A DNA stretch of 64,000 nt from the NCBI GenBank assembly GCA_041650615.1, contig JBAZKU010000001.1, forward strand, positions 91,763 to 155,762, written 5' to 3'. This document shows, in pieces, positions 40,712 through 59,672 of this stretch. The translations under genes and the position numbers were made by a program. The DNA comes from Minisyncoccota bacterium. Lineage in GTDB: Bacteria > Patescibacteriota > Minisyncoccia > Phycocordibacterales > UBA9973. A model generated the notes under the pieces. The model was not told the origin of the DNA. It saw nothing but the letters and a program-made list of their open reading frames with translations, and made no database searches. Position 1 is the stretch's first letter. Every line of letters begins with the position of its first letter.

Positions 40712-41164
40712 TTATCTACACGAACTAGAAAGCACATAACCTGCACTCTCCGCTTCTGTAGATGTTGCAAAATAAATTCTATTTTCTTGTTTGATAGTTT
40801 TTCCAGCAGAACAACTTATGGAATAATATTTACTCCCCTTACTTGAAGCAAAAAAATTCCCTGAAGTTGATTTTGACGTATTTATTGAATTTTGGTCTAT
40901 AGAACTTATTACATTGGCTTCTTGACCCTCATATTCTCCTGCCTGCGCAGGCAGGATTTTTATACCTGAGTTTGTGTCACTTTTAGATAGTCTACCTAGC
41001 TCAAATGAGCCTAAACCAACCAAAATTATGATAATAATGACCAAAATATCCTTACCCTTATCGCTTTCTACGAATTGCTTGACCCCGTTAAAGACAGGGG
41101 GTCGCTGCGAGCCCTCGCGGTCTTTAACGGGGTTGATTTTTTTTGAGGGATAGTGTAAACTCAT
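40712..41164 (-). CDS. hypothetical secreted/anchored protein carrying two in-frame palindromic insertions
   Basis: 150 aa with an N-terminal TM. Contains the 18-bp palindrome (LPAQAG) and a 50-bp palindrome at 41083..41132. Confidence 0.6.
   Translation of the reverse strand: MSLHYPSKKINPVKDREGSQRPPVFNGVKQFVESDKGKDILVIIIIILVGLGSFELGRLSKSDTNSGIKILPAQAGEYEGQEANVISSIDQNSINTSKSTSGNFFASSKGSKYYSISCSAGKTIKQENRIYFATSTEAESAGYVLSSSCR
40938..40955. repeat. 18-bp palindrome CCTGCCTGCGCAGGCAGG, in frame (LPAQAG)
   Basis: One of four copies. Confidence 0.85.
41083..41132. repeat. ~50-bp GC-rich palindrome CCCCGTTAAAGAC ... GTCTTTAACGGGG inside a CDS
   Basis: Read directly. Confidence 0.6.
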
Positions 41165-41196
41165 ATTGTTTATAAATTATATCATAAAAACAACAT

Positions 41197-41469
41197 ATGG
41201 CACATAGAAAAGCCGGCGGAACAGCGAAAAACTTAAGAGATTCAAATCCAAAGTACCTTGGTACTAAGCTTACGGATGGCCAAAAGGCAGAATCCGGCTC
41301 TATTATCATCCGCCAACGTGGTACGGTCATTATGGCTGGTAATAATGTCTCTATGGGTAAGGACCATACTCTTTTTGCCCTAAAACCTGGTATAGTTAAA
41401 TTTGGCTCTAGACGCAAAATCTCCTTTAATGGTAGGACGGTAATCAAAAAGACTGTTAGTGTAATTTAA
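41197..41469 (+). CDS. rpmA: ribosomal protein bL27
   Basis: [22 protein letters not shown]...IIIRQRGT. Confidence 0.95.
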
Positions 41470-41476
41470 AAAAGCA

Positions 41477-41932
41477 TTATTCTGCTTTTTTTATTTCTTC
41501 TATGATAAGCTTAAACGAAGATTTTTTGCCTTTTATTAGAATTGGGATTTCAAACTCCCCTATTTCTTTAATTGGTTTTTCCAGAACAATAAATTTTTCA
41601 TCTATTTGGACATGGCATTCTTCATTCATGGCGTCTACTATCATTTTTTCATGAATGGCGGAAAAAAGATGACCCTTTTCATCCGCTTTTGCCTTTATAG
41701 TAATAGTCTTACCCTTTATCTCTTCTAAATTTTTTTCCAAAAGATCTTCTTGCACTTCCCTTTCAATTACGATTTCTTTTTTATGTATTTCAACTTCCGC
41801 TATGGCTTTCGGAGTTGCAAGTGTTGCCCATTTTTTGGGGAATAAAAAATTTAAAGCATAGCCATCATTTATTTCTTTTATATCATATTTTCTGCCTACT
41901 TTCGGTATATCTTGTAAAAGGATTATTTTCAT
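41477..41932 (-). CDS. rplI: ribosomal protein bL9
   Basis: MKIILLQDIPKVGRKYDIKEINDGYALNFLFP. Confidence 0.9.
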   Translation of the reverse strand: MKIILLQDIPKVGRKYDIKEINDGYALNFLFPKKWATLATPKAIAEVEIHKKEIVIEREVQEDLLEKNLEEIKGKTITIKAKADEKGHLFSAIHEKMIVDAMNEECHVQIDEKFIVLEKPIKEIGEFEIPILIKGKKSSFKLIIEEIKKAE

Positions 41933-41935
41933 ATT

Positions 41936-43162
41936 TTATTTAATACCCGGCCAATTAATTAATAAATCTACCGCTTTATTTAACTGAGGGTCTATTTTAT
42001 TATTAATATCTTTTTGAGTAATAGATGCCTTGTAATCCGGGGTTAATCCTTTTTCAGAAATGGAATTGCCATTTGGGGTTAACCACTTGGCCACAGTAAT
42101 CTTTAAAATAGTATCTTGAGTTACATTTACAACTTCTTGAACGGAACCTTTTCCATAACTCTGTTCTCCTACTAGTAAAGCCTTTTTATAATCTTGCATT
42201 GCCCCGGCAAGTATTTCAGACGCTGATGCAGAACCGTTATCTATTAAAATTACAAATTTTAATTTATCTGTAAATACATTATATCCTTCACTCCTATATA
42301 TTTTGGGTTTTGAATTATTTCCGTAATCTTCCGTTACGACGGGTTTTCCTCCTTCTAAAAACCAACTTGACATACTAACAGCCGCATCCAAATATCCTCC
42401 CGGATTCCCTCTCAAATCAAGTAATAATTTATCGGACCCCGATATGGAAAATTCTTTAAGCGCACTTTGGAAAAGCCTAGCTGAGCTTGCGGAGAAACTA
42501 TAAAGTTTTATCACAAAAATTCCGTCTTTTCTCAATTCCGTATCAAGAGTCGGTATTTCTATAGTGTCTCGCACGATTTTTATTTCTTTTGGTTTTTTAT
42601 CTCCATCGCGCAAAATTGTAAGCGTTACTGTCGTACCCGCTTTTCCTCTAATGAAACTTATTGCCTTCTCTACGCTCAAACCGGAAGTGGCCATATTATC
42701 AATCTTAAGAATTTGGTCGCCCGATTTTATATCAGCTTTATAAGCGGGGGTATCTTTGAGAGGGGCAATTACTGTAAGCACTTTATCTTTCATACCCACT
42801 TCCATACCGACTCCTTCAAAATTTCCCTGTATATTGCCCTCAAACAACTCAGTTTCTTCTGGGGTGAAAAATATGCTATATGGGTCATTTAAGGAGCCCA
42901 CAAGCCCAGAAATAGCCCCATATATCTTCTCTTGGTCTGTTATCTTGCTGACATTTGGGTATTTATCGTTTATACTGTTCCAAACTTTCCAAAATGGAGA
43001 GAAATCAGCCTGGGTTGCAACTGCAGTCTCTTTGCCTAATATATTGACAACTTTATCTATTTCTGGTCCATTATGAAATCCTACATAAACACCAAAACCA
43101 AAAAAAACAGCTACAAGTAAAATTGTGGCTTGCGTGCGTCTCATTTTAAGGTATTCCAACAT
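41936..43162 (-). CDS. ctpA: S41 C-terminal processing peptidase
   Basis: PDZ domain plus DLRGNPGGYL; N-terminal TM anchor. Confidence 0.85.
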   Translation of the reverse strand: MLEYLKMRRTQATILLVAVFFGFGVYVGFHNGPEIDKVVNILGKETAVATQADFSPFWKVWNSINDKYPNVSKITDQEKIYGAISGLVGSLNDPYSIFFTPEETELFEGNIQGNFEGVGMEVGMKDKVLTVIAPLKDTPAYKADIKSGDQILKIDNMATSGLSVEKAISFIRGKAGTTVTLTILRDGDKKPKEIKIVRDTIEIPTLDTELRKDGIFVIKLYSFSASSARLFQSALKEFSISGSDKLLLDLRGNPGGYLDAAVSMSSWFLEGGKPVVTEDYGNNSKPKIYRSEGYNVFTDKLKFVILIDNGSASASEILAGAMQDYKKALLVGEQSYGKGSVQEVVNVTQDTILKITVAKWLTPNGNSISEKGLTPDYKASITQKDINNKIDPQLNKAVDLLINWPGIK

Positions 43163-43185
43163 AAGATTTTATTATATCACTAAAT

Positions 43186-43458
43186 TTATTTTTTATTTAA
43201 TTTGACTTGTTCTTCCAAGTTTATCTCAATTTCATTAAAATTATTATTTTCGGAAAAATTATCGAAGGTTTTTTCTTCTGTCTCCCCTGCTTTAAAATCC
43301 CTGTATAGCATATAACCGAAACAAATAATTGCCAGGCCGGAGATTGAAAAGAGTATATTCTTAAAAGAATATGGAAAACCTAAATATGGCAATACCGCTA
43401 CCCAAACACCTAATCCAAAAATTATTTTCACTTTAGTCATTTTTATATTATATAGCAT
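43186..43458 (-). CDS. small membrane protein
   Basis: 90 aa with two TM helices. Confidence 0.5.
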   Translation of the reverse strand: MLYNIKMTKVKIIFGLGVWVAVLPYLGFPYSFKNILFSISGLAIICFGYMLYRDFKAGETEEKTFDNFSENNNFNEIEINLEEQVKLNKK

Positions 43459-43510
43459 TTAAATAAGCAAAACAATACTTTTTCACGGACCGAAAAAAGC
43501 ATTGTTTTGC

Positions 43511-45205
43511 TTATTTAAAATACTCCGGAGTATTTATGGACATCCAATCCAAAAGTTGACGCATGACGGAAGATGCGCCTACGCTATTCGAAGATGGTCC
43601 TGCTTCCATCATTATAGTGAACGCATATTTGGGATTTTCATAAGGGAAAAACCCTATAATCCAAGAGTTAACTTTATTTTTATTTACCCCGAGCTGAGCG
43701 GTCCCGGTTTTAGAAGCGACTTGCACATAAGGCACATTTATTAGTGAGGAAGTTCCTACCAAAACGCTTTGTCTCATTCCTTCATGAACAACATCAAAAT
43801 ATTCTCTTTTTAAATCCAAGATTGAAATTTTATTTTCCTTTTCCACATCTCCTAAAACATAATGCGGAGTAATCAATGTACCATAATTCGCGATAGCAGA
43901 TACCGCACGCGTCATTTCTATAGGAGTTACTTGAAATCCATATTGTCCGATAACAGTATTATAAGTATCTCCTACGCGCCATGGTTCACCCTTAAAGTTT
44001 TTTATTTTCCATTCAGGACTTGGAATTACTCCTCCTTTTTCATCCGGCAAATCCACTCCGGTTTTTTCTCCAATGCCGAAAAGTTTTGCATATTTTTCAA
44101 TATTAACTATACCCAAACCTTTTTGGTCTTCAAATCCACCGCCGATTTCATAAAAATAAATGTCGCTGGATACGGCCAAAGCTTGCCGCATATCTACCCA
44201 TCCATGCGCTTTCCAGTCTTTAAAAACAGTCTTCTGGTCCGGGAAATATGGATTTGGTATTGAAATAGAATCTGTAGATAATATTTTTTTCAAGGGATCA
44301 ATTACGCCTTCTGTCAGCGCTCCTATGGCAAAAAATGGCTTTACGATAGAACCTGGCGTATAAAGTCCGGAGATGGTTTTATCTAAAAAAACTTTTCTTT
44401 TATCATTTAAATAATCTTGAATTGTTTTAGTATCTTTACCCAGAGAAAGGATTTCAGAATTATATTCCGGGAAACTGACAGAAGCTAATACTTCCCCGTT
44501 ATTAACATCCATTAATATGCCTGCTCCACCCGAAAAAGAATTGCTTTGTGATAGATTCTGAATCAGGGTATATAACTCTTTTTGAATACGCGAATCAATT
44601 GTTGTTACCAGGTCAACGCCGCGCAATGGAGCATTTACTATATTTTCTGAATGGACTATCTTATGTGCATCTATTTCTACTATTTTTGAGCCATTGGTTC
44701 CTTCCAGTGATTGATTATATTGTTTTTCCAACCCATCTTTGCCTATAAAATTGCTTTGCCAATAGTTTCCGGATTTATCTTGCATTGGATAACTTACGTA
44801 GCCCAAAAGATGTGAAAATCCTGGAGATAAATATGAGCGAATTGAGGTAGGTAAATCGGCATTTTTTGTGTTCCAAGCAAGTTCTTTTTTATTTCTGTCA
44901 TAAATAATTCCCCTATCGCTGAAAATAATTTGTTTTTCTAAGACATTGTTTTGGCTTCTATTTAAATATGCCTCACCTTTTTGTATTTGAAGATAACCAA
45001 GTCTGACAGAAAATATTCCTACAAATAATAAAAAAAAAGCGCCGATAAAGGAGATGGTTTTTTTAGAAATTGGTTTTTCTATTCGGCCTTCAAATTGCTG
45101 GCGGTCGAAATTTTGTAAATTTTTAGAATCAAGAAAAATCTCATCGGGCTCTACGAAGAAGTTGGCATTTTTAATTTTTCTTTTCCTTAACATTTTTCTA
45201 ATCAT
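43511..45205 (-). CDS. class B penicillin-binding protein (PBP2/FtsI-type transpeptidase)
   Basis: SIVKP (SxxK), SSD (SxN) and KTGTA (KTG) motifs; N-terminal TM. Confidence 0.85.
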   Translation of the reverse strand: MIRKMLRKRKIKNANFFVEPDEIFLDSKNLQNFDRQQFEGRIEKPISKKTISFIGAFFLLFVGIFSVRLGYLQIQKGEAYLNRSQNNVLEKQIIFSDRGIIYDRNKKELAWNTKNADLPTSIRSYLSPGFSHLLGYVSYPMQDKSGNYWQSNFIGKDGLEKQYNQSLEGTNGSKIVEIDAHKIVHSENIVNAPLRGVDLVTTIDSRIQKELYTLIQNLSQSNSFSGGAGILMDVNNGEVLASVSFPEYNSEILSLGKDTKTIQDYLNDKRKVFLDKTISGLYTPGSIVKPFFAIGALTEGVIDPLKKILSTDSISIPNPYFPDQKTVFKDWKAHGWVDMRQALAVSSDIYFYEIGGGFEDQKGLGIVNIEKYAKLFGIGEKTGVDLPDEKGGVIPSPEWKIKNFKGEPWRVGDTYNTVIGQYGFQVTPIEMTRAVSAIANYGTLITPHYVLGDVEKENKISILDLKREYFDVVHEGMRQSVLVGTSSLINVPYVQVASKTGTAQLGVNKNKVNSWIIGFFPYENPKYAFTIMMEAGPSSNSVGASSVMRQLLDWMSINTPEYFK

Positions 45206-45213
45206 ATTGCTGT

Positions 45214-45477
45214 TTAATTTGAAACTCTGATTTTCTTTTTTAATAATTCAATTATTATCAAAACTAAAAAGGAAACGATTAAAGAAACAAAAAATATATT
45301 GAAAAATCGAGCTTCACTCACTCCATAAAGTAAATCCGAAAGGAAGAATAAAACGACACTTTCCCAAAAAAAAGAGAAATAGACCATTCCTGCCAAGGCC
45401 AGTATAATGGATACCCAAAAAGGCATAAAAAGTATAGATAATAGCAGTATCAAAAAGGCTGAAATTCGGAGTACCAT
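45214..45477 (-). CDS. small polytopic membrane protein, possibly MreD-like
   Basis: 87 aa with three TM helices, immediately upstream of the PBP2 gene. Assignment rests on position only. Confidence 0.3.
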   Translation of the reverse strand: MVLRISAFLILLLSILFMPFWVSIILALAGMVYFSFFWESVVLFFLSDLLYGVSEARFFNIFFVSLIVSFLVLIIIELLKKKIRVSN

Positions 45478-45508
45478 AATCCTATTTTACACGCTTAAAT
45501 TTAAAAAG

Positions 45509-46318
45509 CTAGAAAAAGAAATTCCAAATAAAACGCAAAATTAAAAAAGCAATAATAGCCAAAACGCCATAAAATAAAATTTTATTATTGAGAATAAATG
45601 AAGAAATTGTAAGGAAAAATAATTCCACATATTTTAGCGGTTGTAATATGGAATTTTGAGGGACTTCTTCTTTTGGCGTAGTGGTAGTATTAGCCAAAGC
45701 CTTTATTTCTTTTTGTACTTCTGTTTTTTTACTATCAGACGCAATATTTATATTTGTTCGAAATTGTTCCAAGGCGTTTACGGCAGAAATTATGGGTTCT
45801 GTGATAAAACTTGGCGTTTTTTCTGTTATAGTTTTTTCTATATCTGAAATAGATGTAAAAGTGGAATTTGCGCCAGTATCGGTGGATTGGGAAGTTATTT
45901 TTTTAGAAACGGTGCGGGAACTTTTTTCTGTTTGATTTTCAGTGAGAGATACCGTTTCATAATTTCCATTTGATAATAAGAATTTGGCGTTTTCAATCTG
46001 ACCGAAAATTGTATGGTCTCCGGCAGTGACCGTCCAATTAATAGAAATAGTGCTTGTAGCATTAGCAGCTACCGTAAAGTCTTTTTTACCCAATAAAATA
46101 GTATTATCGAAAAAATTTACCGTGCCGGATAATTGCCTATTGTCGGGGTTAAAAACAAATGTATAAATCTTGATCTTATCCCCTTCTATAAATGGGTCTT
46201 TGGAATACCAAATATTAGCCGAGACAAAACCGGTATTCGCGCTTTGGGCGAATATTTTTTGGATTGGAAATAAAGAAAATATTAAAAATAAAATTATTCC
46301 GATTTTTTTAAGAGTCAT
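45509..46318 (-). CDS. hypothetical surface protein (signal peptide, Ser/Thr-rich linker, C-terminal TM)
   Basis: 269 aa. Confidence 0.6.
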   Translation of the reverse strand: MTLKKIGIILFLIFSLFPIQKIFAQSANTGFVSANIWYSKDPFIEGDKIKIYTFVFNPDNRQLSGTVNFFDNTILLGKKDFTVAANATSTISINWTVTAGDHTIFGQIENAKFLLSNGNYETVSLTENQTEKSSRTVSKKITSQSTDTGANSTFTSISDIEKTITEKTPSFITEPIISAVNALEQFRTNINIASDSKKTEVQKEIKALANTTTTPKEEVPQNSILQPLKYVELFFLTISSFILNNKILFYGVLAIIAFLILRFIWNFFF

Positions 46319-46395
46319 AGGAATATTATATCAGATTTTACCACAAGTCAGACATGTGAGTTATCCCACATGTCTGACTTGTGGAATGACTTCTG

Positions 46396-51588: not shown

Positions 51589-51592
51589 TTTG

Positions 51593-51663
51593 CTGGGAGA
51601 CTTGGAATCGAACCAAGATTCACGGCTTCAAAGGCCGCTGTCCTACCGTTAGACGATCTCCCA
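51593..51663 (-). tRNA. tRNA-Gln (anticodon UUG)
   Basis: Folded by hand: 7-bp acceptor TGGGAGA/TCTCCCA, U8, D-arm, anticodon stem GCGGC/GCCGT with loop CTTTGAA, T-arm CTTGG-TTCGATT-CCAAG, discriminator G. CCA is not encoded. Confidence 0.85.
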
Positions 51664-51669
51664 ATATTT

Positions 51670-52764
51670 TTACTGAACAGCTTTATCTTGCCCCAAAATC
51701 TTCACCAACGCAAGCTCCAACGGAAGCTCGGAAACAAAAGCTCGATCTATGTCATTATAAGCCTCAAGGAGAATTGAAAGCGCTGGAGAACGAAGAATAC
51801 CTTCTTTGTCGGACTTCACTAAACCCTTCAAGAATTCCAAATCTTCTTCTCCTAAATCCCCTACCATTCCTGCCTGCGCAGGCAGGTCTTTTTCTAATTT
51901 AGGTGCATATTTTAAAATTATAGCCATACGAAACTTCTCTATGATTAATTTGGAATAAAGTTTCATATCTAAACTTTCTCCTGCCGCTTTGCGAATAGTC
52001 ATAATCCCCTCTTCTAAATTTTTATTAGCGATAGCGGAAATGAAATCATTTACCAAGACTGTTTTCGGCGCGCCGGTTATTTTTTCTATATCTTCTCGTT
52101 TTACCAGCCTCGCCGAGTCTAGGCGGGTTTTTTTATCTCTACCGGAGAAATTTAAAACTTTTTGCAACGTGCCTAAGGCATCGCGGAATGAACCATCGCC
52201 CAAAATAGCTATCAATTCAGCTCCGCCGGCATCCAATTCAAAGCCTTCTTTTTTAGAAACTTCCAAAACCATTTTTTTAGAAGCAATATCGGAAGCCTTT
52301 CTAAAAGTGAAAACCTGACAGCGGGAGATAATGGTTTCCGGCACTTTATGAATTTCGGTTGTGGCTAAAATAAAAATAACATGCTTTGGCGGTTCTTCTA
52401 AGGTCTTCAGCAAAGCACCCCAAGCATCCTTGGAGAGCATATGTACTTCATCTATAATATAAACCTTATATTTTGAATCAAAAGGCAGAACCCTCGCCCC
52501 ATCCCGAAGCGCTCTGATATCTTCAATTCCCCTATTAGAAGCGGCATCTATTTCATAAAGGTCATTTTCTGAAACCCCTATATCTTTGGCAAAAATTCTA
52601 GCCACAGAAGTTTTGCCTGTGCCCCTAGAGCCCACAAAAAGGTAAGCATGCGAAACTTTATTAGTCTCTACGGAGCTTTCCAGCACTTTTACTATATGGT
52701 CTTGCCCGATGACTTCCTGAAAGGTTTTAGGTCTGTATTTTCTATATAATGCCAAATCATGCAT
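51670..52764 (-). CDS. dnaX: DNA polymerase III subunit gamma/tau (short form)
   Basis: YRPKTF..VIGQ, GSRGTGKTS, EIDAASNRGIEDIR, DEVHMLS, SRCQ. Contains the 18-bp palindrome (LPAQAG). Confidence 0.9.
   Translation of the reverse strand: MHDLALYRKYRPKTFQEVIGQDHIVKVLESSVETNKVSHAYLFVGSRGTGKTSVARIFAKDIGVSENDLYEIDAASNRGIEDIRALRDGARVLPFDSKYKVYIIDEVHMLSKDAWGALLKTLEEPPKHVIFILATTEIHKVPETIISRCQVFTFRKASDIASKKMVLEVSKKEGFELDAGGAELIAILGDGSFRDALGTLQKVLNFSGRDKKTRLDSARLVKREDIEKITGAPKTVLVNDFISAIANKNLEEGIMTIRKAAGESLDMKLYSKLIIEKFRMAIILKYAPKLEKDLPAQAGMVGDLGEEDLEFLKGLVKSDKEGILRSPALSILLEAYNDIDRAFVSELPLELALVKILGQDKAVQ
51869..51886. repeat. 18-bp palindrome CCTGCCTGCGCAGGCAGG, in frame in dnaX
   Basis: Read directly. 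Confidence 0.85.
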
Positions 52765-52800
52765 GGTTTGATTATAACCCGTGATAAAAGAAATTCAAAG

Positions 52801-52870
52801 AATTTTAAGAGTCGTGGGTTCCCTGTCCTCACGGACTCCGAGGGCGAAGGCTCAGAAATTTTTTGAATTT
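52801..52870 (-). repeat. GC-rich promoter-proximal element (reverse-complement copy) upstream of dnaX
   Basis: Sense with respect to dnaX. TTATAAT lies 6 nt before the dnaX ATG. Confidence 0.85.
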
Positions 52871-52906
52871 CTTTTATTAAAAAAACTCAAGAATTAATGT
52901 TTTTGC

Positions 52907-52972
52907 CGGTACGGATTTTTTGAAGCTTAAAAAATCCTGAAGTTTTCGCGCCGTCGCGCTCAAAACCCCTTA
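52907..52972. repeat. double-hairpin repeat, second copy
   Basis: Over 90% identical to 30168..30240. Confidence 0.8.
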
Positions 52973-54037
52973 AAACATTATTCTTGAGTTTTTTTTATTG
53001 AGAAAATCATTTATGATTTTCTCTACTTCTTTGGCATTTTTTGTTTTCATTAATTTTACCCGCAATTCTTTGGCTCCTTTAAAGTCATTTACATATGCCT
53101 TAAAATGTTTTTTCATAACGGAAAAATTTTTATGCTTAGGTTTTGAAAGTTCTTTCTCAAAAATTTGGGTGTGTTCTACAAGAACTTCTAATTTTTCCTG
53201 AATAAAACTGAACTCTCTTAAATTTTTTGTCCCCGAGGGTCCCACGGCGACCTCGCCGGGATCGGCGAAGGGCGCAGGGGCAGAAAATTTAAGAGAGTGA
53301 GGTTTTTGATTAAAAAACCATGGATTACCAAAAACCGCTCTCCCAATCATTATTCCATCGCAACCAGTTTCTCTTACTTTTTGTTTAGCTTCTTCCAGAC
53401 TTTGAACATCACCATTTCCTATTATCAGAGTTTTATATCCTAATTCATCGCGAATTTCCACGATTCTTTTCATTAATTCCCAATGCGCGGGGCCATTAGA
53501 CATTTCCTTGCGAGTTCGCAGATGTATAATCAATGCCGCTAAATTTTCTTTTAAAAGTCCTTTTACCCAAGTTTCAATTTCATTTTTATTATAGCCAATG
53601 CGAGTTTTGACCGAAACAGGCAATCCTTTTCCATCTTTCTGGACTGTGTGAATAATTTCTCGCGCTAATTTTAAATTTTTCATCAAGGCTGCGCCTGCCC
53701 CTTGCTTCTCAATTGATTTATCCGGACAGCCCATATTTATATCTATGCCGTCAAAGCCCAGTTTTTTACAAAGAGCGGAAGCTTTTCTCATATTTTCCGT
53801 ATTTGAACCAAATAATTGCACCACTATTGGATGTTCTTTTTTAGAAAATTTTAAATCAATTAGAAGTTTATCCTTCCCTTTTGCGTGAACAAGACCGTTA
53901 GCAGAAACAAATTCCGTCCAGATTACATCTGGTTTTCCATGTTGGGCTATCATCTGTCTGAAAGCGCAATCGGTGACATCCGACATCGGAGCTAGGCAGA
54001 AAAATGGTTTATTTAATTTTTTCCAAAAGTTGTTCAT
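52970..54037 (-). CDS. dus: tRNA-dihydrouridine synthase
   Basis: CLAPMSDVTDCAFR and IDINMGCP. Has an internal GC-rich low-complexity insert at 53228..53285 (APAPFADPGEVAVGPSGT). Confidence 0.85.
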   Translation of the reverse strand: MNNFWKKLNKPFFCLAPMSDVTDCAFRQMIAQHGKPDVIWTEFVSANGLVHAKGKDKLLIDLKFSKKEHPIVVQLFGSNTENMRKASALCKKLGFDGIDINMGCPDKSIEKQGAGAALMKNLKLAREIIHTVQKDGKGLPVSVKTRIGYNKNEIETWVKGLLKENLAALIIHLRTRKEMSNGPAHWELMKRIVEIRDELGYKTLIIGNGDVQSLEEAKQKVRETGCDGIMIGRAVFGNPWFFNQKPHSLKFSAPAPFADPGEVAVGPSGTKNLREFSFIQEKLEVLVEHTQIFEKELSKPKHKNFSVMKKHFKAYVNDFKGAKELRVKLMKTKNAKEVEKIINDFLNKKNSRIMF

Positions 54038-54063
54038 AAATCTTCCAAACTAAGAAAATTAAA

Positions 54064-54133
54064 AATTTTAAGAGTCGTGGGTCCCCTGTCCTCACGGACT
54101 CCGAGGGCGAAGGCTCAGAAATTTTTGAATTTT
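54064..54133 (-). repeat. GC-rich promoter-proximal element (reverse-complement copy) upstream of dus
   Basis: Read directly. Confidence 0.85.
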
Positions 54134-54146
54134 TTAGTTTGATATT

Positions 54147-55016
54147 TTACTTGAATTTGTAATATACCTTATTCCCAAACCGAAGGTCAATATAAAGGAG
54201 TGAAGAATATTTATTTTTAAAATCTGATTTAAAGGGTTCCGTGCCAAGCACCGTTTGCAGATTTTCTGCCACTTTTTCAAAATCGGAATCTGTTTTTAAA
54301 ATTATTTTCGGTCCCAACTGTGATTCTGATGTGGAAGAGAGAAACATTTCTATATCTCCATTATCTTGTACATAAAATATTACCGGTTTTATTGCAATTT
54401 TTTCAAGTGTTTCTTTAAGTAATATTAATTTGCCAAAAATTGGTTGGGAAAAATAAGAGCCAAATGAAGCAGTTCCATAAAACTTCAAATAAACTTCTCC
54501 GGAGAAATAAGGAGCCTCATCAAAAATATAACCGCTATCATCCATAAAATAACATTTATTATTGTTTTGAATTTCAATCTCTGAATTATTTAACTCTGGT
54601 GGCATAGTACCACAATATGTATATAGCGCGGTTCTCTCGGTTAAAGAAATATCCAATGTTTGCAGATTTTTGATACTAATGGAAATATCTTTCAATCTTT
54701 TGAATTTATCAGCCAATTCTTTTTTTATTTCCCCTTTGGGATAAAGTAAAAAATTTGTTTTTGGCAAAACCCATAAAAAGTTACCGGCAATTTTTTCTTT
54801 TGCAATATCTTCAATCATTTTGGTTTCCACTACCTTGTTGCCCGAAATTTGGATATTATTTATATTTACTTTTTCCCATTTAGAGAGAAAAGACAGACCA
54901 ACCAAAACTAAAATAAGCAAAAAAACCAAAAAAAATATTTTTCTTCTTAAAATTTTACGTTGTTTTCTTTTTAATTCTAAAAGACGAGGAGAATTTAAAA
55001 CATTTTGATTTTTCAT
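54147..55016 (-). CDS. FtsQ/DivIB-like cell-division protein (N-terminal TM plus POTRA-like region)
   Basis: 289 aa. Similarity to the FtsQ POTRA pattern (..ISGN....E......G.N........L...P.IK...I.......L.I.V.ER.A) is weak. Confidence 0.4.
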   Translation of the reverse strand: MKNQNVLNSPRLLELKRKQRKILRRKIFFLVFLLILVLVGLSFLSKWEKVNINNIQISGNKVVETKMIEDIAKEKIAGNFLWVLPKTNFLLYPKGEIKKELADKFKRLKDISISIKNLQTLDISLTERTALYTYCGTMPPELNNSEIEIQNNNKCYFMDDSGYIFDEAPYFSGEVYLKFYGTASFGSYFSQPIFGKLILLKETLEKIAIKPVIFYVQDNGDIEMFLSSTSESQLGPKIILKTDSDFEKVAENLQTVLGTEPFKSDFKNKYSSLLYIDLRFGNKVYYKFK

Positions 55017-55093
55017 CCCAGTACTAAAATTTTAAGTTGTTAATAATCGTGGTCATTTCTCTTACTCAAAAATTTAGTACGGGACAGGTATTA
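55014..55093 (-). repeat. type II stop-to-start palindromic element (serS to FtsQ-like gene)
   Basis: The serS stop TAA (55091..55093 on the minus strand) lies in the left arm; the downstream ATG (55014..55016) ends the right arm. Confidence 0.85.
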
Positions 55094-56356
55094 CTTGATG
55101 AATTCTTTTCCACCCATGTATTTTTTCAAAACTTCCGGAATTTTTACAGTGCCATCCGCCTGTTGATAATTTTCTAGGATAGCTGCCGGCAATCTTGAGG
55201 TAGCGCAAGCGGTGTTATTTAGAGAATGAACATATTTTGATTTTCCCTCTCTGTCTTTATATTTAATATTTAATCTGCGAGCTTGAAAATCATGAAAATA
55301 GGAAGAGGAGTGAGTTTCGCGATATTTGTTTTGAGAAGGCATCCAAGCTTCTATATCATATTTCTTTACTTGACCCAAACCGAGGTCGCCTCCGCAGTTG
55401 GCAACCACACGATATGGAATTTTTAATTCCTGCATTAAGTGTTCCACATGGTTTGTTATTTCTTCATGCAGTTTGGCAGATTCTTCATGGCTGGCTTCGC
55501 ATAATAAAACTTGTTCAAGTTTAAAAAATTCATGCACTCTAATTATTCCTTTCACATCTTTTCCATGACTTCCTGCTTCTCGCCTAAAACAAGGAGAAAA
55601 AGCGATAAACTTTTTAGGAAGCGAATCTTTTGGCAAAATTTCTCCCGAATAATAAGACATAGCCGCAACTTCTGCAGTACCGGCAAAATATTCTCCGTCT
55701 TGTGTCTTATACAAATCATCTTCACCTTGAGGCAAATATCCCGTACCCATTAATGTTTCTTTTCTTACAAGCGATGGCACAATCATCGGAATGTATCCTT
55801 TGTTTACAAAATAATCTAAAAAGTACTGCCAAAGCGCAAAAAATAATAAAGCCCCGTCATTTTTCATAAAGTATCCGCGAAAACCGGAAACTTTTGTGCC
55901 TCGCTCAAAATCAACCAAGTCAAGATTTTCCACAATTGCCACATGGTCTTTAGGAGTAAAATTAAATACGGGTCTTTCTCCCCAAGCCCTCACTTCAAGA
56001 TTTTCTTCATCACTTTTCCCATTAGGAACAGAAATGTCTGGAATATTTGGAACTTGCAACATAATCTTTTGCCATTCTTCCATTATTTTTCTTAATTTTT
56101 CCTCTTTTTCTTTTATATCTTCTTTTACCGCGCGCATTTCTTCAATTAGTTGCATCTTATGAGCGCTGTCTTGATTGCGAGAAATATCATTTGAAACTTT
56201 GTTTACTTCACCTCTCAAATCTTCCACTTCTTTGAGTTGTTTTAAACGTTCATCATCTAACGCAATAAGTTTTTCAATATCAACTTCTATGAATTTCTTT
56301 TTTGCGCCTTCTTTCACTATTTCTTTGTTTTCACGAATGAATTTGATGTCTAACAT
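55091..56356 (-). CDS. serS: seryl-tRNA synthetase
   Basis: N-terminus MLDIKFIREN plus the class II core. The start is set at the internal Met; the tracked ORF extends 120 nt further. Confidence 0.9.
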   Translation of the reverse strand: MLDIKFIRENKEIVKEGAKKKFIEVDIEKLIALDDERLKQLKEVEDLRGEVNKVSNDISRNQDSAHKMQLIEEMRAVKEDIKEKEEKLRKIMEEWQKIMLQVPNIPDISVPNGKSDEENLEVRAWGERPVFNFTPKDHVAIVENLDLVDFERGTKVSGFRGYFMKNDGALLFFALWQYFLDYFVNKGYIPMIVPSLVRKETLMGTGYLPQGEDDLYKTQDGEYFAGTAEVAAMSYYSGEILPKDSLPKKFIAFSPCFRREAGSHGKDVKGIIRVHEFFKLEQVLLCEASHEESAKLHEEITNHVEHLMQELKIPYRVVANCGGDLGLGQVKKYDIEAWMPSQNKYRETHSSSYFHDFQARRLNIKYKDREGKSKYVHSLNNTACATSRLPAAILENYQQADGTVKIPEVLKKYMGGKEFIK

Positions 56357-56379
56357 ATTTGTATTATATACTATAGCGT

Positions 56380-57261
56380 ATGAAAATTCAAAAGCTCCCC
56401 AAAAATAAATTCCCGAGAGCCCTTTTGGAAATTCCGCAACCGCCGGAAGATCTTTGGATAATCGGCAACCTGCCAAAACCTGCCTGCGCAGGCGGGGAAA
56501 ACCTAATTTATTTATGTGTGGTGGGCTCGCGTAAATTTACTTCCTACGGAAAAGAAGCTTGTGAAAAGATAATTGCTGGTTTGAAAGGATATCCAATCGC
56601 CATAGTTTCCGGTTTTGCCATGGGTATAGACACCATAGCTCACAAGAAAGCGATGCAAGTCGGATTAAAAACGATAGTTTTTCCGGGTTCCGGGCTTTCA
56701 GATGAAGCGATGTATCCAAAAATGAATGTTCGCTTAATGAGAGAGGTGGTGGAAAAAGGCGGGTGCTTGATTTCCGAATTTGAACCCGATTTCAAAGCAA
56801 CTCAGTGGAGTTTCCCTATGCGCAATCGCCTAATGGCTGGTATTTCCAAATCCGTGCTGATAATAGAAGCGGAGGAAAAATCCGGTACTCTTATTACTGC
56901 CAGATTGGCTACAGAATACAATAGAGATGTGCTTGTTGTCCCTGGATCAATTTCTTCACCGTCTTCCAAAGGTACCAATAAATTAATCAAACAAGGCGCA
57001 ACGCCTGTAACCTGCGCGGAAGATGTACTGGAAGCTTTGGGATTTGAGTTAAAAAAAGATAAAGAAAAACAGCAAAAACTTTTTGAAGATTTGTCACCGG
57101 AAGAACAAAAAGTAGTAAAACTTCTTCGTGAACCGATTCCCCGCGATGATTTAATTCGCGCCATGAAAATGCCGACTCCTAACGCCAATGCGATACTTTC
57201 CATTATGGAAATAAAAGAACTGATAAAAGAAGAATTAGGTGAGATTAGGCTAGGTACCTAA
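56380..57261 (+). CDS. dprA: DNA processing protein DprA (Smf)
   Basis: VVGSRKFTSYG....IVSGFAMGIDTIAH; contains a 1-mismatch copy of the 18-bp palindrome. Confidence 0.8.
   Translation: MKIQKLPKNKFPRALLEIPQPPEDLWIIGNLPKPACAGGENLIYLCVVGSRKFTSYGKEACEKIIAGLKGYPIAIVSGFAMGIDTIAHKKAMQVGLKTIVFPGSGLSDEAMYPKMNVRLMREVVEKGGCLISEFEPDFKATQWSFPMRNRLMAGISKSVLIIEAEEKSGTLITARLATEYNRDVLVVPGSISSPSSKGTNKLIKQGATPVTCAEDVLEALGFELKKDKEKQQKLFEDLSPEEQKVVKLLREPIPRDDLIRAMKMPTPNANAILSIMEIKELIKEELGEIRLGT
56479..56496. repeat. 18-bp palindrome, 1-mismatch copy (CCTGCCTGCGCAGGCGGG), in frame in dprA (PACAGG)
   Basis: Read directly. Confidence 0.8.
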
Positions 57262-57407
57262 TCGCAAGGCCGGAGCACGACGGTGCGAGGCGAGCTCAAC
57301 AGAATTTTTTAGTAGAAAAATATCTGGAGAGATTAAATTGGCTTGACCCTTCTTTTCATCAGGACAAGTTTGCAAAAAAAAACTATTTCGTGTAATACTT
57401 AGCAAAT

Positions 57408-59672
57408 ATGAAATTATTAATCGTTGAATCGCCATCAAAAGCAAAGACCATTGAGAAATATCTCGAGGGTGTTTATACTGTGCGCGCATCTGTCGGGCAT
57501 ATCCGCGATTTACCGAAATCAAATAAGCAAGCGATAGACATAGAAGGCGGGTTCATACCGCATTATGAAGTTTCCAAAGGCAAGGAAAAAATTATACATG
57601 AACTCCGATCTCTTGGAGAAAAAGCTAGTGAAATACTTTTAGCCACAGACCCTGATCGCGAAGGAGAAGCGATAGCTTGGCATATTGAAGAATTATTGAA
57701 TAAAGATCCCGAAGGAAAGCAAGTTTCCTACGGGGCGGGTAAAAAAAAAGCTTCTATAAAAAGAGTTAGATTTTATGAAATAACCGAGGAAGCAGTAAAA
57801 GAAGCCTTGAAGTACCCTGAAGAAATTGATATGAAGCTAGTAAAAGCTCAAGAAGCTAGACGAGTATTAGACAGACTTGTCGGTTATGATCTTTCGGGAC
57901 TTATTTGGAAAAAAGTACGTTATGGACTTTCTGCAGGGCGAGTTCAATCCCCTGCGCTTCGCATAATAATGGAACGCGAACGTGAGATTCGCGCTTTTGT
58001 TCCGGAACAGTATTGGAAATTATTCGGTCTCTTTGAAACTCAAAAAAAGGGAAAATTGACCCTTTTTTGTTCAGAAGAACCTAAAAATGAAAAATTGGTT
58101 GAAAAAATACTTGAAGAAGGGAAAAAAGGAAATTGGCTGGTAAAAGAAGTAAAAGAATCCGAACAAAAAAGAATTCCTCGGGCTCCATTCACTACTTCTA
58201 CTTTGCAACAAACAGCAAGCTCACGGCTTGGTTATTCCCCTTCTAGAACAATGCAAATAGCGCAAAAACTTTATGAAGCTGGACATATTACATATATGAG
58301 AACGGATAGTACAAATCTGTCCTCGGCCGCGCAAGCGCAAATCGTTTCCCTTATTAATAAAAAATATGGAAATGAATATGCTTTACCACGAGCTTATAAG
58401 GCTAGATCTAAAAATGCCCAAGAAGCGCATGAAGCAATTCGCCCGACCCATATAGAAAATTTAGGAGCTGGTACTGAGGAGCAGCAAAGACTTTACAAAT
58501 TGATTTGGGAACGCGCTGTATCTTCACAAATGGCTGATGCAAAATTATTAAAAACAAAAATAAACGCAAATATTTCTCCAGATGCACCTATTCCTGATTT
58601 TACAGCTACCGGTTCACGGATTCTTTTTCCCGGATGGCTTCTTGTGGATAAAGATAGTGTGGGAGAGGACATAGAATTGCCGGAAGTAAAGAAAGGAGAA
58701 AAATTAAAATTGTTGAATCTGATAAAAGAAGAAAAATTTACTGAGCCACCTAATAGATACAGTGAAGCGGGCCTAATAAAGGAACTGGAGGCGAGAGATA
58801 TAGGCCGGCCATCTACATATGCTTCCATAATGAAAACACTGGAAGACAGAGAATATGTAAAAAAAGAAGGTAAAACTCTCTACCCTACCGATGTCGGCGA
58901 AGTCGTATCTGATTTTCTGGAAAAATATTTTGCTAATTATATTTCCGATACTTTTACAGCAGAAATGGAAGATGAATTGGATGAAATTTCCAGAGGTGAA
59001 CGCGAATATGAAAAAACACTTAAAGATTTTTATGGACCATTTTCCAAAGATGTAAAATCAAAAGAAAAATTAGAAAAAGCGACTAATTTGGGCGATGCCC
59101 CGGAAAATATAAAATGTCCAAAATGTGGAAGTAAAATGATTATTAAACTTTCCCGCGGAGGCAAGTTTTATTCTTGTTCAAGATATCCTGATTGCGACGG
59201 CGCATTAATGATAGATGGAACGGAGTTAAAGGGTCCGAAAGAAACAGGAGAAATGTGTCCGCTATGCGGCCTGCCTGCGCAGGCAGGAGAAAAAAAGAAA
59301 AAAAACTATGGTGGTAAACTTATTATCCGAGAAAGACGCGATGGAAGCGGAACTTTTATTTCTTGTTCACGTTATCCAAAATGCAAGTTTATTAAAAAAG
59401 ATGAAGCAGAAGAAGCCAAAAAAAGGACAGGTATTATTTGTCCTTTGTGTAAAAAGGGAGATATAACTGAACGGCGCGGAAGGTTCGGTATATTTTATTC
59501 TTGTTCAAATTATCCCGATTGTAAATTTGCCATGAAAGCAAAACCTACCGGTAGAATATGCGACAAATGCGGTTCTTTAATGATGGAGGGAACAAAAACT
59601 ATCCCCGAAAGATGCAGTAACAAGTCTTGCTCAAACCATAATCCTCATAAAATATCAAAAATTGATAAATAA
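57408..59672 (+). CDS. topA: DNA topoisomerase I with four C-terminal C4 zinc ribbons
   Basis: Toprim MKLLIVESPSKAKTI and the active-site region. The 18-bp palindrome sits between zinc ribbons. Confidence 0.95.
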   Translation: MKLLIVESPSKAKTIEKYLEGVYTVRASVGHIRDLPKSNKQAIDIEGGFIPHYEVSKGKEKIIHELRSLGEKASEILLATDPDREGEAIAWHIEELLNKDPEGKQVSYGAGKKKASIKRVRFYEITEEAVKEALKYPEEIDMKLVKAQEARRVLDRLVGYDLSGLIWKKVRYGLSAGRVQSPALRIIMEREREIRAFVPEQYWKLFGLFETQKKGKLTLFCSEEPKNEKLVEKILEEGKKGNWLVKEVKESEQKRIPRAPFTTSTLQQTASSRLGYSPSRTMQIAQKLYEAGHITYMRTDSTNLSSAAQAQIVSLINKKYGNEYALPRAYKARSKNAQEAHEAIRPTHIENLGAGTEEQQRLYKLIWERAVSSQMADAKLLKTKINANISPDAPIPDFTATGSRILFPGWLLVDKDSVGEDIELPEVKKGEKLKLLNLIKEEKFTEPPNRYSEAGLIKELEARDIGRPSTYASIMKTLEDREYVKKEGKTLYPTDVGEVVSDFLEKYFANYISDTFTAEMEDELDEISRGEREYEKTLKDFYGPFSKDVKSKEKLEKATNLGDAPENIKCPKCGSKMIIKLSRGGKFYSCSRYPDCDGALMIDGTELKGPKETGEMCPLCGLPAQAGEKKKKNYGGKLIIRERRDGSGTFISCSRYPKCKFIKKDEAEEAKKRTGIICPLCKKGDITERRGRFGIFYSCSNYPDCKFAMKAKPTGRICDKCGSLMMEGTKTIPERCSNKSCSNHNPHKISKIDK
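59270..59287. repeat. 18-bp palindrome CCTGCCTGCGCAGGCAGG, in frame in topA (LPAQAG)
   Basis: Read directly. Confidence 0.85.

What the first reader, a model, noticed from the sequence alone, without database searches (positions are those of the whole stretch)
40938..59287. 18-bp perfect palindrome CCTGCCTGCGCAGGCAGG present in frame in four unrelated genes (HIP-like)
Copies lie at 40938..40955 (hypothetical secreted protein), 51869..51886 (dnaX), 56479..56496 (dprA, one mismatch) and 59270..59287 (topA, between zinc ribbons).

Three copies encode L-P-A-Q-A-G and the dprA copy encodes P-A-C-A-G-G. Because the sequence is palindromic, either orientation gives the same peptide. At 18 bp (6 codons) the frame is preserved.

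Chance recurrence of an 18-mer four times in 64 kb is negligible. It is either a small mobile or gene-conversion palindrome, or a site selected for a DNA-binding or restriction/uptake function. The core contains TGCGCA and CTGCGCAG.
Basis: seen in the sequence. Interest (0 to 1): 0.7.

Follow-up and report, generated by a model that had tools for sequence, protein, structure and literature searches.

The report
Tiny palindromic DNA insert inside genes
An 18-base perfect palindrome has been spliced cleanly and in frame into four housekeeping genes of this ultra-small (CPR/Patescibacteria) bacterium, and the identical 18-mer is scattered through hundreds of contigs from many CPR lineages, so it behaves like one of the smallest mobile DNA elements described.

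Summary
CCTGCCTGCGCAGGCAGG occurs at 40938, 51869 and 59270, plus a one-mismatch copy at 56479, against 0 expected. The genome is 35% GC.

Orthologue alignments show that all four copies are insertions. At the dnaX and topA sites DNA comparison shows exactly 18 bp added with no target-site duplication; the dprA copy is a net +15 bp.

The same 18-mer turned up in at least 117 genome loci and 120 metagenome loci. Most are Patescibacteria, and nearly all have unique flanks.

- **Frame bias:** among copies in long ORFs, about 75% read LPAQAG (43:9:3, replicated as 45:6:10; p≈1e-10).
- **Flanks:** the only flank rule is a purine next to each end.
- **Turnover:** near-identical orthologues differ by presence or absence. 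The same dnaX nucleotide was hit independently in different lineages. Old copies decay by point mutation. One topA insert allele sits on a clear recombination tract.
- **tRNA subclass:** a non-coding subclass sits in the D-arm of tRNA pseudo-fragments beside GIY-YIG/HNH homing-endonuclease ORFs.
- **Candidate enzyme:** the window encodes a RAYT-like HUH transposase, but its own flanking hairpins differ from the 18-mer.

Best reading: a selfish, trans-mobilised mini-palindrome filtered by selection. The mechanism is unproven. It is not HIP1-like and not a parS or uptake site by the tests possible here. I found no prior description.

The parts
40938..40955 (.). Copy 1: exact 18-mer, read as LPAQAG on the minus strand in ORF 40712-41164 (TM segment plus Ada_Zn_binding-like C-terminus)
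   Evidence: Among 121 orthologues, 77 read I-E (empty), 7 read I-LPAQAG-E, and about 18 carry decayed 6-aa inserts at the same position.
51869..51886 (.). Copy 2: exact 18-mer, read as LPAQAG on the minus strand in dnaX (51670-52764); it splits a GAA codon (GA^A)
   Evidence: The empty site GAAAAAGA^AATGG in L118 compares with the filled site in the window, giving exactly +18 bp and no target duplication. The same nucleotide is filled in L146 and L270, and carries a 21-bp variant in L119. The insert lies in a predicted inter-helix loop with pLDDT below 50.
56479..56496 (.). Copy 3: one-mismatch copy (CCTGCCTGCGCAGGCgGG), read as PACAGG on the plus strand near the N-terminus of dprA (56380-57261)
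   Evidence: It is absent from the dprA genes of L118, L119, L270, L148 and L149. L270 carries a different one-mismatch copy elsewhere in dprA.
59270..59287 (.). Copy 4: exact 18-mer, read as LPAQAG on the plus strand in topA (57408-59672), in the linker between C-terminal zinc ribbons
   Evidence: The site is filled in the window and L118, has a 1-mismatch copy in L270 and a decayed copy in L148, and is empty in L119 (TGTGG^AGGAAAG). 19 of 120 orthologues are filled; these are scattered in the tree but share a linked EKKKKVYGG tract.
17523..18164 (-). Candidate only, no link shown: RAYT-like HUH (Y1) transposase gene, a possible class of trans-acting hairpin mobiliser
   Evidence: Pfam Y1_Tnp E=2.5e-8. 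The best NCBIfam hit is REP-associated tyrosine transposase at 40.9 bits, below the cutoff of 80. The HUH motif PNHFHILV is present. The gene is flanked by inverted hairpins ACATAGGA-GTT/AAC-TCCTATGT at 17510-17528 and 18183-18201, which are not the 18-mer.

Best explanation
The 18-mer is a non-autonomous, selfish mini-insertion element: a GC-rich perfect palindrome that can form a 7-bp-stem hairpin. It is repeatedly inserted into Patescibacterial genomes by a trans-acting mechanism that leaves no target-site duplication and only weakly prefers a purine|pyrimidine step.

It is 18 bp long, has no stop codon in any frame, and is its own reverse complement. Any insertion therefore keeps the host reading frame. 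Selection then removes most copies except those in tolerant loops that read as the small, flexible peptide LPAQAG. Once fixed, copies decay by AT-biased point mutation. Filled and empty alleles are also shuffled between related lineages by homologous recombination.

Shown: the insertion status of all four copies; the exact 18-bp size at the dnaX and topA sites; absence of target duplication; the frame bias; recurrent independent hits; decay; one recombination tract; a phylum-wide distribution with unique flanks.

Inferred: that the element is selfish rather than useful, and that a hairpin-specific enzyme (for example an HUH/RAYT-like transposase such as the one encoded at 17523-18164) or a break-repair process does the inserting.
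For: - **Clean insertion:** 18 bp exactly, with unambiguous borders (dnaX L118 vs window; L147 vs L146; topA L119 vs window).
- **No target duplication:** the distribution of flanking direct-repeat lengths in 127 copies equals that of random positions.
- **The 18-mer is the unit:** flanks are unique in CPR copies.
- **Independent gain:** each filled dnaX allele matches its own empty relative right up to the insertion point (window~L118, L146~L147; also L270). dprA was hit at two different sites in two lineages.
- **Fast turnover:** DnaX P0171 (filled) and P0194 (empty) are 98% identical outside the site.
- **Frame filter:** 43 LPAQAG: 9 PACAGR: 3 CLRRQ (p=1.2e-11), replicated as 45:6:10 (p=1.3e-10).
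- **Neutral decay:** LPAQTG, LSVQTG, MSTEVG, INTQTG and others at the copy-1 site; C->T and G->A changes in L148.
- **Recombination:** topA in L148 vs L149 has 0 mismatches over 1,660 nt, then about 12% divergence across the insert region.
- **Distribution:** at least 117 genome loci, about 68 of them named CPR lineages, and 120 further metagenome loci.
- **Tolerated position:** the dnaX insert sits in a loop.
- **Genomic background:** the window carries several other GC-rich palindromic families, some also in frame, and a RAYT-like HUH gene.
Against: - No enzyme is linked to the 18-mer. Every RAYT-like gene found has its own, different flanking hairpins, and its proximity to the 18-mer (171 and 196 bp in L030 and L028) is not statistically secure.
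- There is no conserved target tetranucleotide of the kind IS200/IS605 or RAYT chemistry uses; only a purine at -1.
- Identity of the 18-mer across very deep lineages is hard to explain for a selfish element unless the machinery is universally conserved or horizontal spread is rampant.
- Exact same-nucleotide recurrence implies a targeting rule that I could not define.
- Copy number per genome appears low, which is atypical for a proliferating repeat.
Confidence: 0.6

Rival explanations
1. Break-repair scar. The palindrome is filler DNA joined into blunt double-strand breaks, for example breaks made by homing endonucleases. It would then mark past cleavage sites rather than being a transposing element.
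For: At least 10 non-coding copies lie at fixed positions in the D-arm of tRNA pseudo-fragments (9/10, 10/11, 12/13, about 21/22). These fragments sit next to an intact tRNA and a small GIY-YIG or HNH ORF. One junction of these cassettes is seamless and the other carries the palindrome. The insertion neither gains nor loses target bases. The flank rule is symmetric, R|Y. A self-complementary 18-mer would anneal to itself as a blunt duplex (inference).
Against: No source of such an oligonucleotide is known. The window has four copies but no homing endonuclease or tRNA fragment: its tRNA-Gln at 51592-51663 is intact. GIY-YIG enzymes usually leave 2-nt overhangs (general knowledge), which would be expected to add or remove bases. 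Extra CCTG units adjacent to the core occur only at chance level, 2 of 268 (and flank lists).
Confidence: 0.13
2. Functional DNA site selected by the host: a DNA-uptake signal spread by biased transformation, or a binding site for a conserved protein (parS-like centromere or another palindrome binder).
For: The four copies cluster within 18 kb beside parB (61159-62127), in dnaX, dprA and topA. The window has no canonical parS. Uptake sequences are known to favour genome-maintenance genes, and DNA-metabolism genes are frequent among hosts. A filled topA allele moved by recombination. The decayed L148 copy kept its symmetry (C5T/G14A). Sequence identity across phyla suggests constraint.
Against: parB is absent from the 8-kb neighbourhoods in all the other genome-scan loci. 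Density is about 1 per 18 kb here and 0-1 per 10-22 kb in relatives, against roughly 1 per kb for DUS/USS (general knowledge). Sites are present or absent among 98%-identical orthologues and decay freely. Copies also lie in dead tRNA fragments. The host-function bias is no more than about 2-fold against a matched control and is inflated by orthologous copies. The clustering of 4 points within 29% of the window is not significant (p≈0.08, my calculation).
Confidence: 0.12
3. HIP1-like hyper-abundant palindrome generated by mutation, methylation-linked repair or gene conversion.
For: It is a perfect GC-rich palindrome recurring inside genes.
Against: It arises by an 18-bp insertion, not by substitution. 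Abundance is low. No shorter core is over-represented: TGCGCA occurs 16 times in the window, and CTGCGCAG occurs only inside the copies. The host is not a cyanobacterium.
Confidence: 0.03
4. Assembly or sequencing artefact, or a conserved peptide motif selected at protein level.
For: All CPR sources are metagenome assemblies. The peptide LPAQAG recurs.
Against: Copies are reproduced in independent assemblies and studies. Orthologous copies show point-mutational decay and co-linear codon evolution. Most orthologues lack the peptide. The same DNA also occurs in the other two frames and in non-coding DNA.
Confidence: 0.02

Closest known systems
Rickettsia palindromic elements (RPEs)
   Same: Palindromic repeats inserted in frame into otherwise conserved protein genes, and also into RNA genes, of a reduced AT-rich genome. 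They are tolerated as extra surface peptides, patchy among orthologues, and regarded as selfish DNA (background knowledge; PMC1779305 appeared in the search).
   Different: RPEs are about 100-150 bp and restricted to one genus. This element is 18 bp, a perfect palindrome, identical across many candidate phyla, and shows same-nucleotide recurrence.
REP / REPIN elements with RAYT (HUH Y1) transposases
   Same: Short hairpin-forming repeats thought to be mobilised in trans by a single-copy IS200-like tyrosine transposase, with no target duplication. The window encodes a RAYT-like protein flanked by inverted hairpins.
   Different: REPs are extragenic imperfect palindromes of 20-40 bp with a GTAG or CGTC tag (PMC3733652) and usually occur in hundreds of copies. 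The 18-mer is mostly intragenic, has no tag, is low in copy number, and is not the hairpin that flanks any RAYT-like gene seen.
GC clusters of yeast mitochondrial DNA, and organellar palindromic repeats (Volvox)
   Same: Short GC-rich palindromes that invade an AT-rich compact genome, including coding regions, and are polymorphic between close strains (PMC4478555 and PMC2670323 surfaced).
   Different: Those are eukaryotic organelle elements of about 30-60 bp, often with short target duplications. Here the host is bacterial, the element is 18 bp, and there is no duplication.
PARCELs (palindromic amphipathic repeat coding elements)
   Same: Palindromic coding repeats that read as similar peptides in either orientation and are distributed horizontally (PMC2996958).
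   Different: PARCELs are about 100+ bp, encode amphipathic repeats and occur as tandem intragenic arrays. The 18-mer is a single unit.
HIP1 of cyanobacteria; DUS/USS uptake sequences; parS
   Same: Short palindromic or conserved words that often lie inside genes. parS occurs in a few copies near parB.
   Different: All three arise by substitution at pre-existing positions and are maintained by function or drive. The 18-mer is an insertion, decays, is unlinked to parB elsewhere, and is far sparser than HIP1, DUS or USS.

Membership tests
HIP1 (highly iterated palindrome) | Octamer GCGATCGC, or a comparably short word, present about once per 0.3-1 kb | tested here: not met
   The element is an 18-mer with 4 copies in about 74 kb. 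No shorter core is enriched outside the copies.
HIP1 (highly iterated palindrome) | Arises by substitution or gene conversion at existing positions, not by insertion | tested here: not met
   Empty-site alignments show exact +18 bp at the dnaX and topA sites.
REP/REPIN-RAYT system | The genome encodes a RAYT (HUH Y1 transposase) | tested here: inconclusive
   ORF 17523-18164 hits Y1_Tnp (E=2.5e-8). Its best NCBIfam hit is the REP-associated tyrosine transposase model, but at 40.9 bits against a cutoff of 80. The HUH motif is present.
REP/REPIN-RAYT system | The RAYT gene is flanked by its cognate REP in inverted orientation | tested here: not met
   The flanking hairpins are ACATAGGA-N3-TCCTATGT in the window and other lineage-specific hairpins in 7 other loci. 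None is the 18-mer.
REP/REPIN-RAYT system | Conserved GTAG/CGTC tag at one end; extragenic location | tested here: not met
   The only flank signal is a purine at -1 on both sides. About 70-75% of the CPR/low-GC copies lie in open frames of at least 120 codons.
IS200/IS605-type ssDNA transposition (works-like test) | No target-site duplication | tested here: met
   The distribution of flanking-repeat lengths equals the random control.
IS200/IS605-type ssDNA transposition (works-like test) | Insertion 3' of a specific tetra- or pentanucleotide | tested here: not met
   No k-mer (k=2-4) covers more than 31% of sites on either side.
Rickettsia palindromic element-like selfish coding insert | In-frame insertion absent from most orthologues, in tolerant protein regions | tested here: met
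   All four window sites meet this. A loop location is predicted for DnaX.
Rickettsia palindromic element-like selfish coding insert | Sequence homology to RPE families; length of about 100-150 bp | tested here: not met
   The unit is 18 bp with unique flanks.
parS / ParB centromere site | Association with parB and the origin region across genomes | tested here: not met
   parB was found only in the syntenic relatives L118 and L119 and one viral contig, and in none of the other genome-scan loci.
parS / ParB centromere site | Binding by ParB | not testable with these tools
   This needs ChIP-seq or in vitro binding assays.
DNA uptake sequence (DUS/USS) | Density of about 1 per kb, and lineage-specific dialects | tested here: not met
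   About 1 copy per 18 kb here. The identical word occurs across more than 20 candidate phyla.
DNA uptake sequence (DUS/USS) | Preferential uptake of DNA carrying the motif | not testable with these tools
   This needs a transformation or uptake assay. CPR bacteria are mostly uncultured.

The most novel reading that the evidence does not exclude
The 18-mer is a previously undescribed class of 'nano' mobile element: the whole element is just one 18-bp hairpin. Under this reading it is mobilised in trans across the entire Patescibacteria by a conserved hairpin-specific (HUH/RAYT-like) or break-repair-coupled machinery. It shows site-preferential insertion, including into the D-arm of tRNA genes. 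There it accompanies homing-endonuclease-plus-tRNA cassettes and may inactivate the resident tRNA copy, which would make the cassette indispensable.
Probability: 0.25. Interest if true: 0.85.

Novelty: new variant of a known kind. Interest (0 to 1): 0.66.

Why it matters
If this reading is right, it pushes the lower size limit of a mobile DNA unit down to a single 18-bp hairpin. It would also show that even the most streamlined bacterial genomes (CPR, about 1 Mb) are being colonised inside essential genes such as dnaX, topA and dprA.

The element gives a ready-made marker of very recent insertion, loss and recombination among uncultured lineages. It explains a recurrent odd hexapeptide (LPAQAG and its decayed forms) in CPR protein alignments. 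It also poses a concrete mechanistic question: what inserts a fixed palindrome without target duplication at reproducible nucleotides? That question could be tested with the RAYT-like and GIY-YIG/HNH proteins found next to some copies.

On the practical side, such inserts can mislead orthology, indel-based phylogenetic markers and structure prediction for CPR proteins.

Tried and rejected
- **Extended repeat or parent element:** rejected. There is no flank similarity among the window copies. All-vs-all BLAST of ±150-bp flanks groups only orthologous or duplicated loci and one Sphingobacteriales MAG.
- **Half-sites as ends of a larger transposon:** none found. CCTGCCTGC and GCAGGCAGG occur only inside the copies.
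- **Target-site duplication:** none beyond chance.
- **Conserved target motif:** none beyond a purine at -1. A shared AATGGTAGG next to the dnaX and tRNA-Gln sites sits at different offsets and is treated as coincidence.
- **Viral vector:** 25 IMG/VR hits, but 22 are in contigs of 50-67% GC where the word is chance-prone.
- **parS:** no canonical parS in the window and no parB linkage elsewhere.
- **Known RNA family:** Rfam finds only two tRNAs in the window.
- **Genome-maintenance host bias:** not convincing against a length-matched control.
- **Telomerase-like repeat addition (arms = (CCTG)2C):** extra CCTG units adjacent to the core occur only at chance level.
- **A nearby mobilising gene at 40-62 kb:** none; all genes there are housekeeping.
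- **The RAYT-like gene as cognate enzyme:** its flanking hairpins differ from the 18-mer, and the proximity statistics are weak.
- **Literature:** 0 papers for the 18-mer, for the LPAQAG peptide, or for Patescibacteria + palindromic + in-frame + insertion. Two broader searches gave only analogues.

Full report
**1. The observation**

CCTGCCTGCGCAGGCAGG is present exactly at 40938, 51869 and 59270, and with one mismatch (A16G) at 56479. No dinucleotide-preserving shuffle of the window produced a single match, even with three mismatches allowed. The window is 35% GC, whereas the palindrome is 78% GC. From base composition alone I calculate about 3e-13 expected matches per position. All CTGCGCAG octamers and all 9-nt half-sites in the window belong to these four copies. 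Aligning ±60 nt shows that similarity ends exactly at the 18-mer.

Translations confirm LPAQAG in ORF 40712-41164(-), dnaX 51670-52764(-) and topA 57408-59672(+), and PACAGG in dprA 56380-57261(+). Pfam confirms the host identities. An independent assembly of the same or a near-identical genome (L145) matches the window at 100% over 11.7 kb. It includes the dprA and topA copies and shows no further copy in the next 9.7 kb.

**2. The source organism**

TopA and DnaX are 100% identical to proteins of a Candidatus Paceibacterota (Nomurabacteria-like) MAG on a 598,563-bp contig. The nearest other orthologues are about 86% identical.

**3. The copies are insertions**

In alignments of 120 orthologues each, most TopA proteins read CPxCG-EKKGKSGGGKL and most DnaX proteins read EKE-MxGD. 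Only 14 TopA and 5 DnaX proteins contain LPAQAG, at the same positions, and a few more carry mutated or 7-residue variants. For the copy-1 host, 77 of 121 orthologues are empty (I-E) and 7 have I-LPAQAG-E. About 18 carry progressively decayed 6-residue inserts, including LPAQTG, LPAVAG, LSVQTG, MSTEVG and INTQTG.

DNA from syntenic relatives gives the exact event:
- **dnaX:** empty GAAAAAGA^AATGG (L118) against GAAAAAGA[18-mer]AATGG (window).
- **topA:** empty TGTGG^AGGAAAG (L119) against TGCGG[18-mer]AGAAAAAAAG (window). L118 is also filled.
- **dprA:** filled only in the window (net +15 bp in an A-rich tract).

The borders are unambiguous and no target bases are duplicated or lost at the dnaX and topA sites. 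Across 127 copies, the distribution of flanking direct-repeat lengths equals that of random positions.

**4. Distribution**

About 68 of them are explicitly named Patescibacteria from more than 20 candidate phyla or classes, including WWE3, Microgenomates groups, Parcubacteria groups, Saccharibacteria and Dojkabacteria. The remainder include a Sphingobacteriales MAG with 7 copies embedded in longer non-coding repeats, two other Bacteroidota MAGs, and scattered high-GC genomes where the word is chance-prone.

A metagenome scan gave 120 further non-redundant loci, again truncated. CPR copies have unique flanks, so the 18-mer itself is the repeat unit. Related hairpins with the same CCTGCC...GGCAGG arms and other centres exist. 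These include a 21-mer at the very same dnaX nucleotide in L119 and 20-mers of the form CCTGCCYRCCGGCAGGCAGG.

Viral contigs gave 25 hits, but almost all are in 50-67% GC DNA.

**5. Signs of selection after insertion**

The palindrome has no stop codon in any frame, and its three frames are the same on both strands. Among CPR copies lying in open frames of at least 120 codons, 43 read LPAQAG, 9 PACAGR and 3 CLRRQ (binomial p=1.2e-11). The independent low-GC metagenome set gives 45:6:10 (p=1.3e-10).

In coding orientation the element typically splits a GAN or GGN codon, giving D/G-LPAQAG-E/K/D. Pooled over both sides, the only flank signal is a purine adjacent to the element: 80% against 51% in controls, replicated at 75%.

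An AlphaFold model of DnaX (mean pLDDT 69.9) places residues 294-299 in a loop between helices, inside a segment with pLDDT below 50. The C-terminal domain is poorly modelled overall, so this is supportive evidence only.

As single-stranded DNA the element folds into a 7-bp stem with a GCGC loop, ΔG -6.5 kcal/mol.

**6. Dynamics**

Filled TopA alleles are scattered over a neighbour-joining tree built with the site masked. Only 5 of 19 have a filled nearest neighbour (permutation p=0.19).

Very close pairs differ in state. DnaX P0171 (filled) and P0194 (empty) are 98% identical elsewhere. TopA P0006 and P0010 are 98.4% identical yet carry different inserts. At DNA level two processes are visible:
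- **(a) Independent insertion.** The filled dnaX alleles of the window, L146 and L270 each resemble their own empty relatives right up to AGA^AATGG, not each other. dprA was hit at two different places in two lineages.
- **(b) Recombination.** topA of L148 and L149 is identical for 1,660 nt and then about 12% divergent through the insert site to the gene end. All filled topA alleles share a linked EKKKKVYGG tract.

Decay is AT-biased and non-synonymous. In L148 the sequence CTG TCT GCG CAG ACA GAA encodes LSAQTE, and two of its changes are symmetric so the palindrome is preserved.

**7. A special non-coding subclass**

In L026, L107, L036, L041 and L037 the 18-mer lies exactly between nt 10 and 11 of a non-functional tRNA-Gln 5' fragment or pseudo-copy. 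The usual arrangement is [tRNA 1-10][18-mer][11-25], then a small GIY-YIG ORF (an HNH-type ORF in L036), then the complete tRNA-Gln.

L173 shows the same design with tRNA-Leu, with two palindrome-bearing pseudo-copies flanking a GIY-YIG ORF plus the intact tRNA. L117 and two copies in L091 are in other tRNA-like 5' fragments, at positions 12/13 and 9/10.

Overall proximity to tRNAs is only mildly elevated: 18 of 268 copies lie within 600 bp, against 4.5% expected, and 7 lie within 70 bp, against about 2.4 expected. The window's own tRNA-Gln (51592-51663), directly downstream of dnaX, is intact. This association is unexplained. It is the main support for the break-repair-scar rival.

**8. A search for a mobilising enzyme**

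The 40-62 kb region contains only housekeeping genes. Elsewhere in the window, ORF 17523-18164(-) matches Pfam Y1_Tnp (E=2.5e-8). Its best NCBIfam hit is REP-associated tyrosine transposase (40.9 bits, below the cutoff of 80). It has an HUH motif (PNHFHILV) and is bracketed by inverted copies of ACATAGGA-N3-TCCTATGT.

Homologues occur in 7 other palindrome-bearing loci. In two of them the 18-mer lies within 200 bp of the gene (L030, L028). However, each gene has its own lineage-specific flanking hairpins, never the 18-mer, and the distance statistics are not significant. CPR genomes therefore possess the right kind of enzyme for hairpin mobilisation without target duplication, but the link to this element remains an inference.

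**9. Rivals tested**

- **parS-like site:** no canonical parS in the window and no parB within the other genome-scan loci.
- **Uptake sequence:** density is too low, the word is not lineage-specific, and copies decay. The DNA-metabolism bias among 108 host ORFs (Toprim 5, UvrC 3-4, PolA/5'-3' exonuclease 3, UvrD 2, PD-(D/E)XK 2, RNase_T 2) is matched by Fpg 3, GyrA 2 and SMC 2 in length-matched neighbouring ORFs.
- **HIP1-like:** contradicted by the insertion mode and the low abundance.
- **Known RNA families:** none.
- **Artefact:** contradicted by independent assemblies and by evolutionary decay.

**10. Context**

The window holds several other GC-rich palindromic families. One is a roughly 42-bp hairpin read in frame in RecR, ScpB and a D-Ala-D-Ala carboxypeptidase. 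The 18-mer is therefore the smallest member of a broader invasion of this AT-rich genome by GC-rich hairpins.

**11. Comparison and novelty**

Functionally the element most resembles Rickettsia RPEs and organellar GC clusters (selfish palindromes tolerated in frame), and mechanistically perhaps REP/RAYT systems. It fails the defining features of each family on size, tag, extragenic location and cognate flanking of a RAYT. It also differs by its extreme shortness, its perfect symmetry, its identity across a superphylum, and its same-nucleotide recurrence.

Full-text searches for the sequence, for the peptide and for the concept found nothing. Subscription literature could not be searched.

I rate it a new variant of a known kind, with interest 0.66.

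**Limitations**

- Both collection scans were truncated, so copy numbers per genome are unknown.
- Coding frames were assigned by the longest open frame.
- Taxon names are those given in the records.
- No read-level or experimental data were available.

Noticed in passing
window 17523-18164 (-), hairpins 17510-17528 and 18183-18201: A RAYT-like / IS200-like HUH tyrosine transposase gene (213 aa, PNHFHILV motif), bracketed by inverted copies of the hairpin ACATAGGA-N3-TCCTATGT. Homologues with their own lineage-specific flanking hairpins occur in L188, L030, L254, L197, L028, L158 and L064.
   Followed up: partly
window 18849-18890, 32375-32416, 33346-33394: A second GC-rich imperfect palindrome of about 42 bp (CCCGCCTCGACTCG..CGACGCGAGGCGGG). 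It lies in frame in RecR (18660-19307) and ScpB (32204-32815), read as PASTRGDSSTRGGE, and in a D-Ala-D-Ala carboxypeptidase (32799-33725), read as PPRVGEPLRVEAG.
   Followed up: partly
window 30171-30235 and 52906-52970; about 20857, 32123, 52832, 54095; 34805/35991; 34852/36083/48349: Three further intergenic or 5'-region GC-rich repeat families: a 65-bp repeat ending TCGCGCCGTCGCGCTC, a GGACTCCGAGGGCGAAGGCTC type, and AGCCGCGGTCGC / GCAGGTCGCGGT at gene ends. Their function is unknown and none matches Rfam.
   Followed up: no
window about 41085-41136 (N-terminal region of ORF 40712-41164): A hairpin with a 14-bp stem (ACCCCGTTAAAGAC...GTCTTTAACGGGGT) is translated as NPVKDREGSQRPPVFNGV. About half of the orthologues have this 27-residue N-terminal extension and the others start at MEKIK, so the true start codon or a conserved upstream DNA/RNA element is in question.
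   Followed up: partly
L026, L107, L036, L037, L041, L117, L091, L173 (other genomes): tRNA genes (Gln, Leu, others) are accompanied by pseudo-fragments whose D-arm carries the 18-mer. These usually sit beside a small free-standing GIY-YIG or HNH ORF, in an arrangement that looks like a homing-endonuclease-plus-tRNA cassette.
   Followed up: partly
L148 vs L149 (topA): A sharp recombination breakpoint: 0 differences over the first 1,660 nt of topA, then about 12% divergence to the end. This shows homologous exchange between fairly diverged CPR lineages.
   Followed up: yes
L102 vs L109 (Bacteroidota MAG paralogous regions): Next to the shared 18-mer, L102 has an extra 18-bp hairpin-like insertion (CTGCTTGATCAGGCAAGC) that is absent from L109. 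This hints that 18-bp hairpin insertions of other sequence also occur.
   Followed up: no
L001, L024, L052, L078, L089, L111, L063, L079: Several copies sit within 7-bp tandem-repeat or low-complexity tracts. Two of them (L078 with 14 bp, L089 with 7 bp) have identical direct repeats on both sides, unlike the general no-duplication rule.
   Followed up: partly
window 26135-27588: An N6/N4 DNA methylase gene followed by a MutH/Sau3AI-like endonuclease gene, a probable restriction-modification pair. It is unrelated to the 18-mer, which has no GATC.
   Followed up: no
window 4537-6624 and 10477-11982; 4465-4502: Two ORFs with weak matches to TrwB/VirD4-type coupling-protein and HerA-like ATPase families, among large ORFs with no Pfam match. 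Also a 38-bp perfect palindrome that looks like a terminator.
   Followed up: no
window 53231-53281 (Dus gene): A 51-nt stretch of very high GC content inside the dihydrouridine synthase gene (SAPAPFADPGEVAVGPSG). It may be another GC-rich insert; I did not compare it with orthologues.
   Followed up: no
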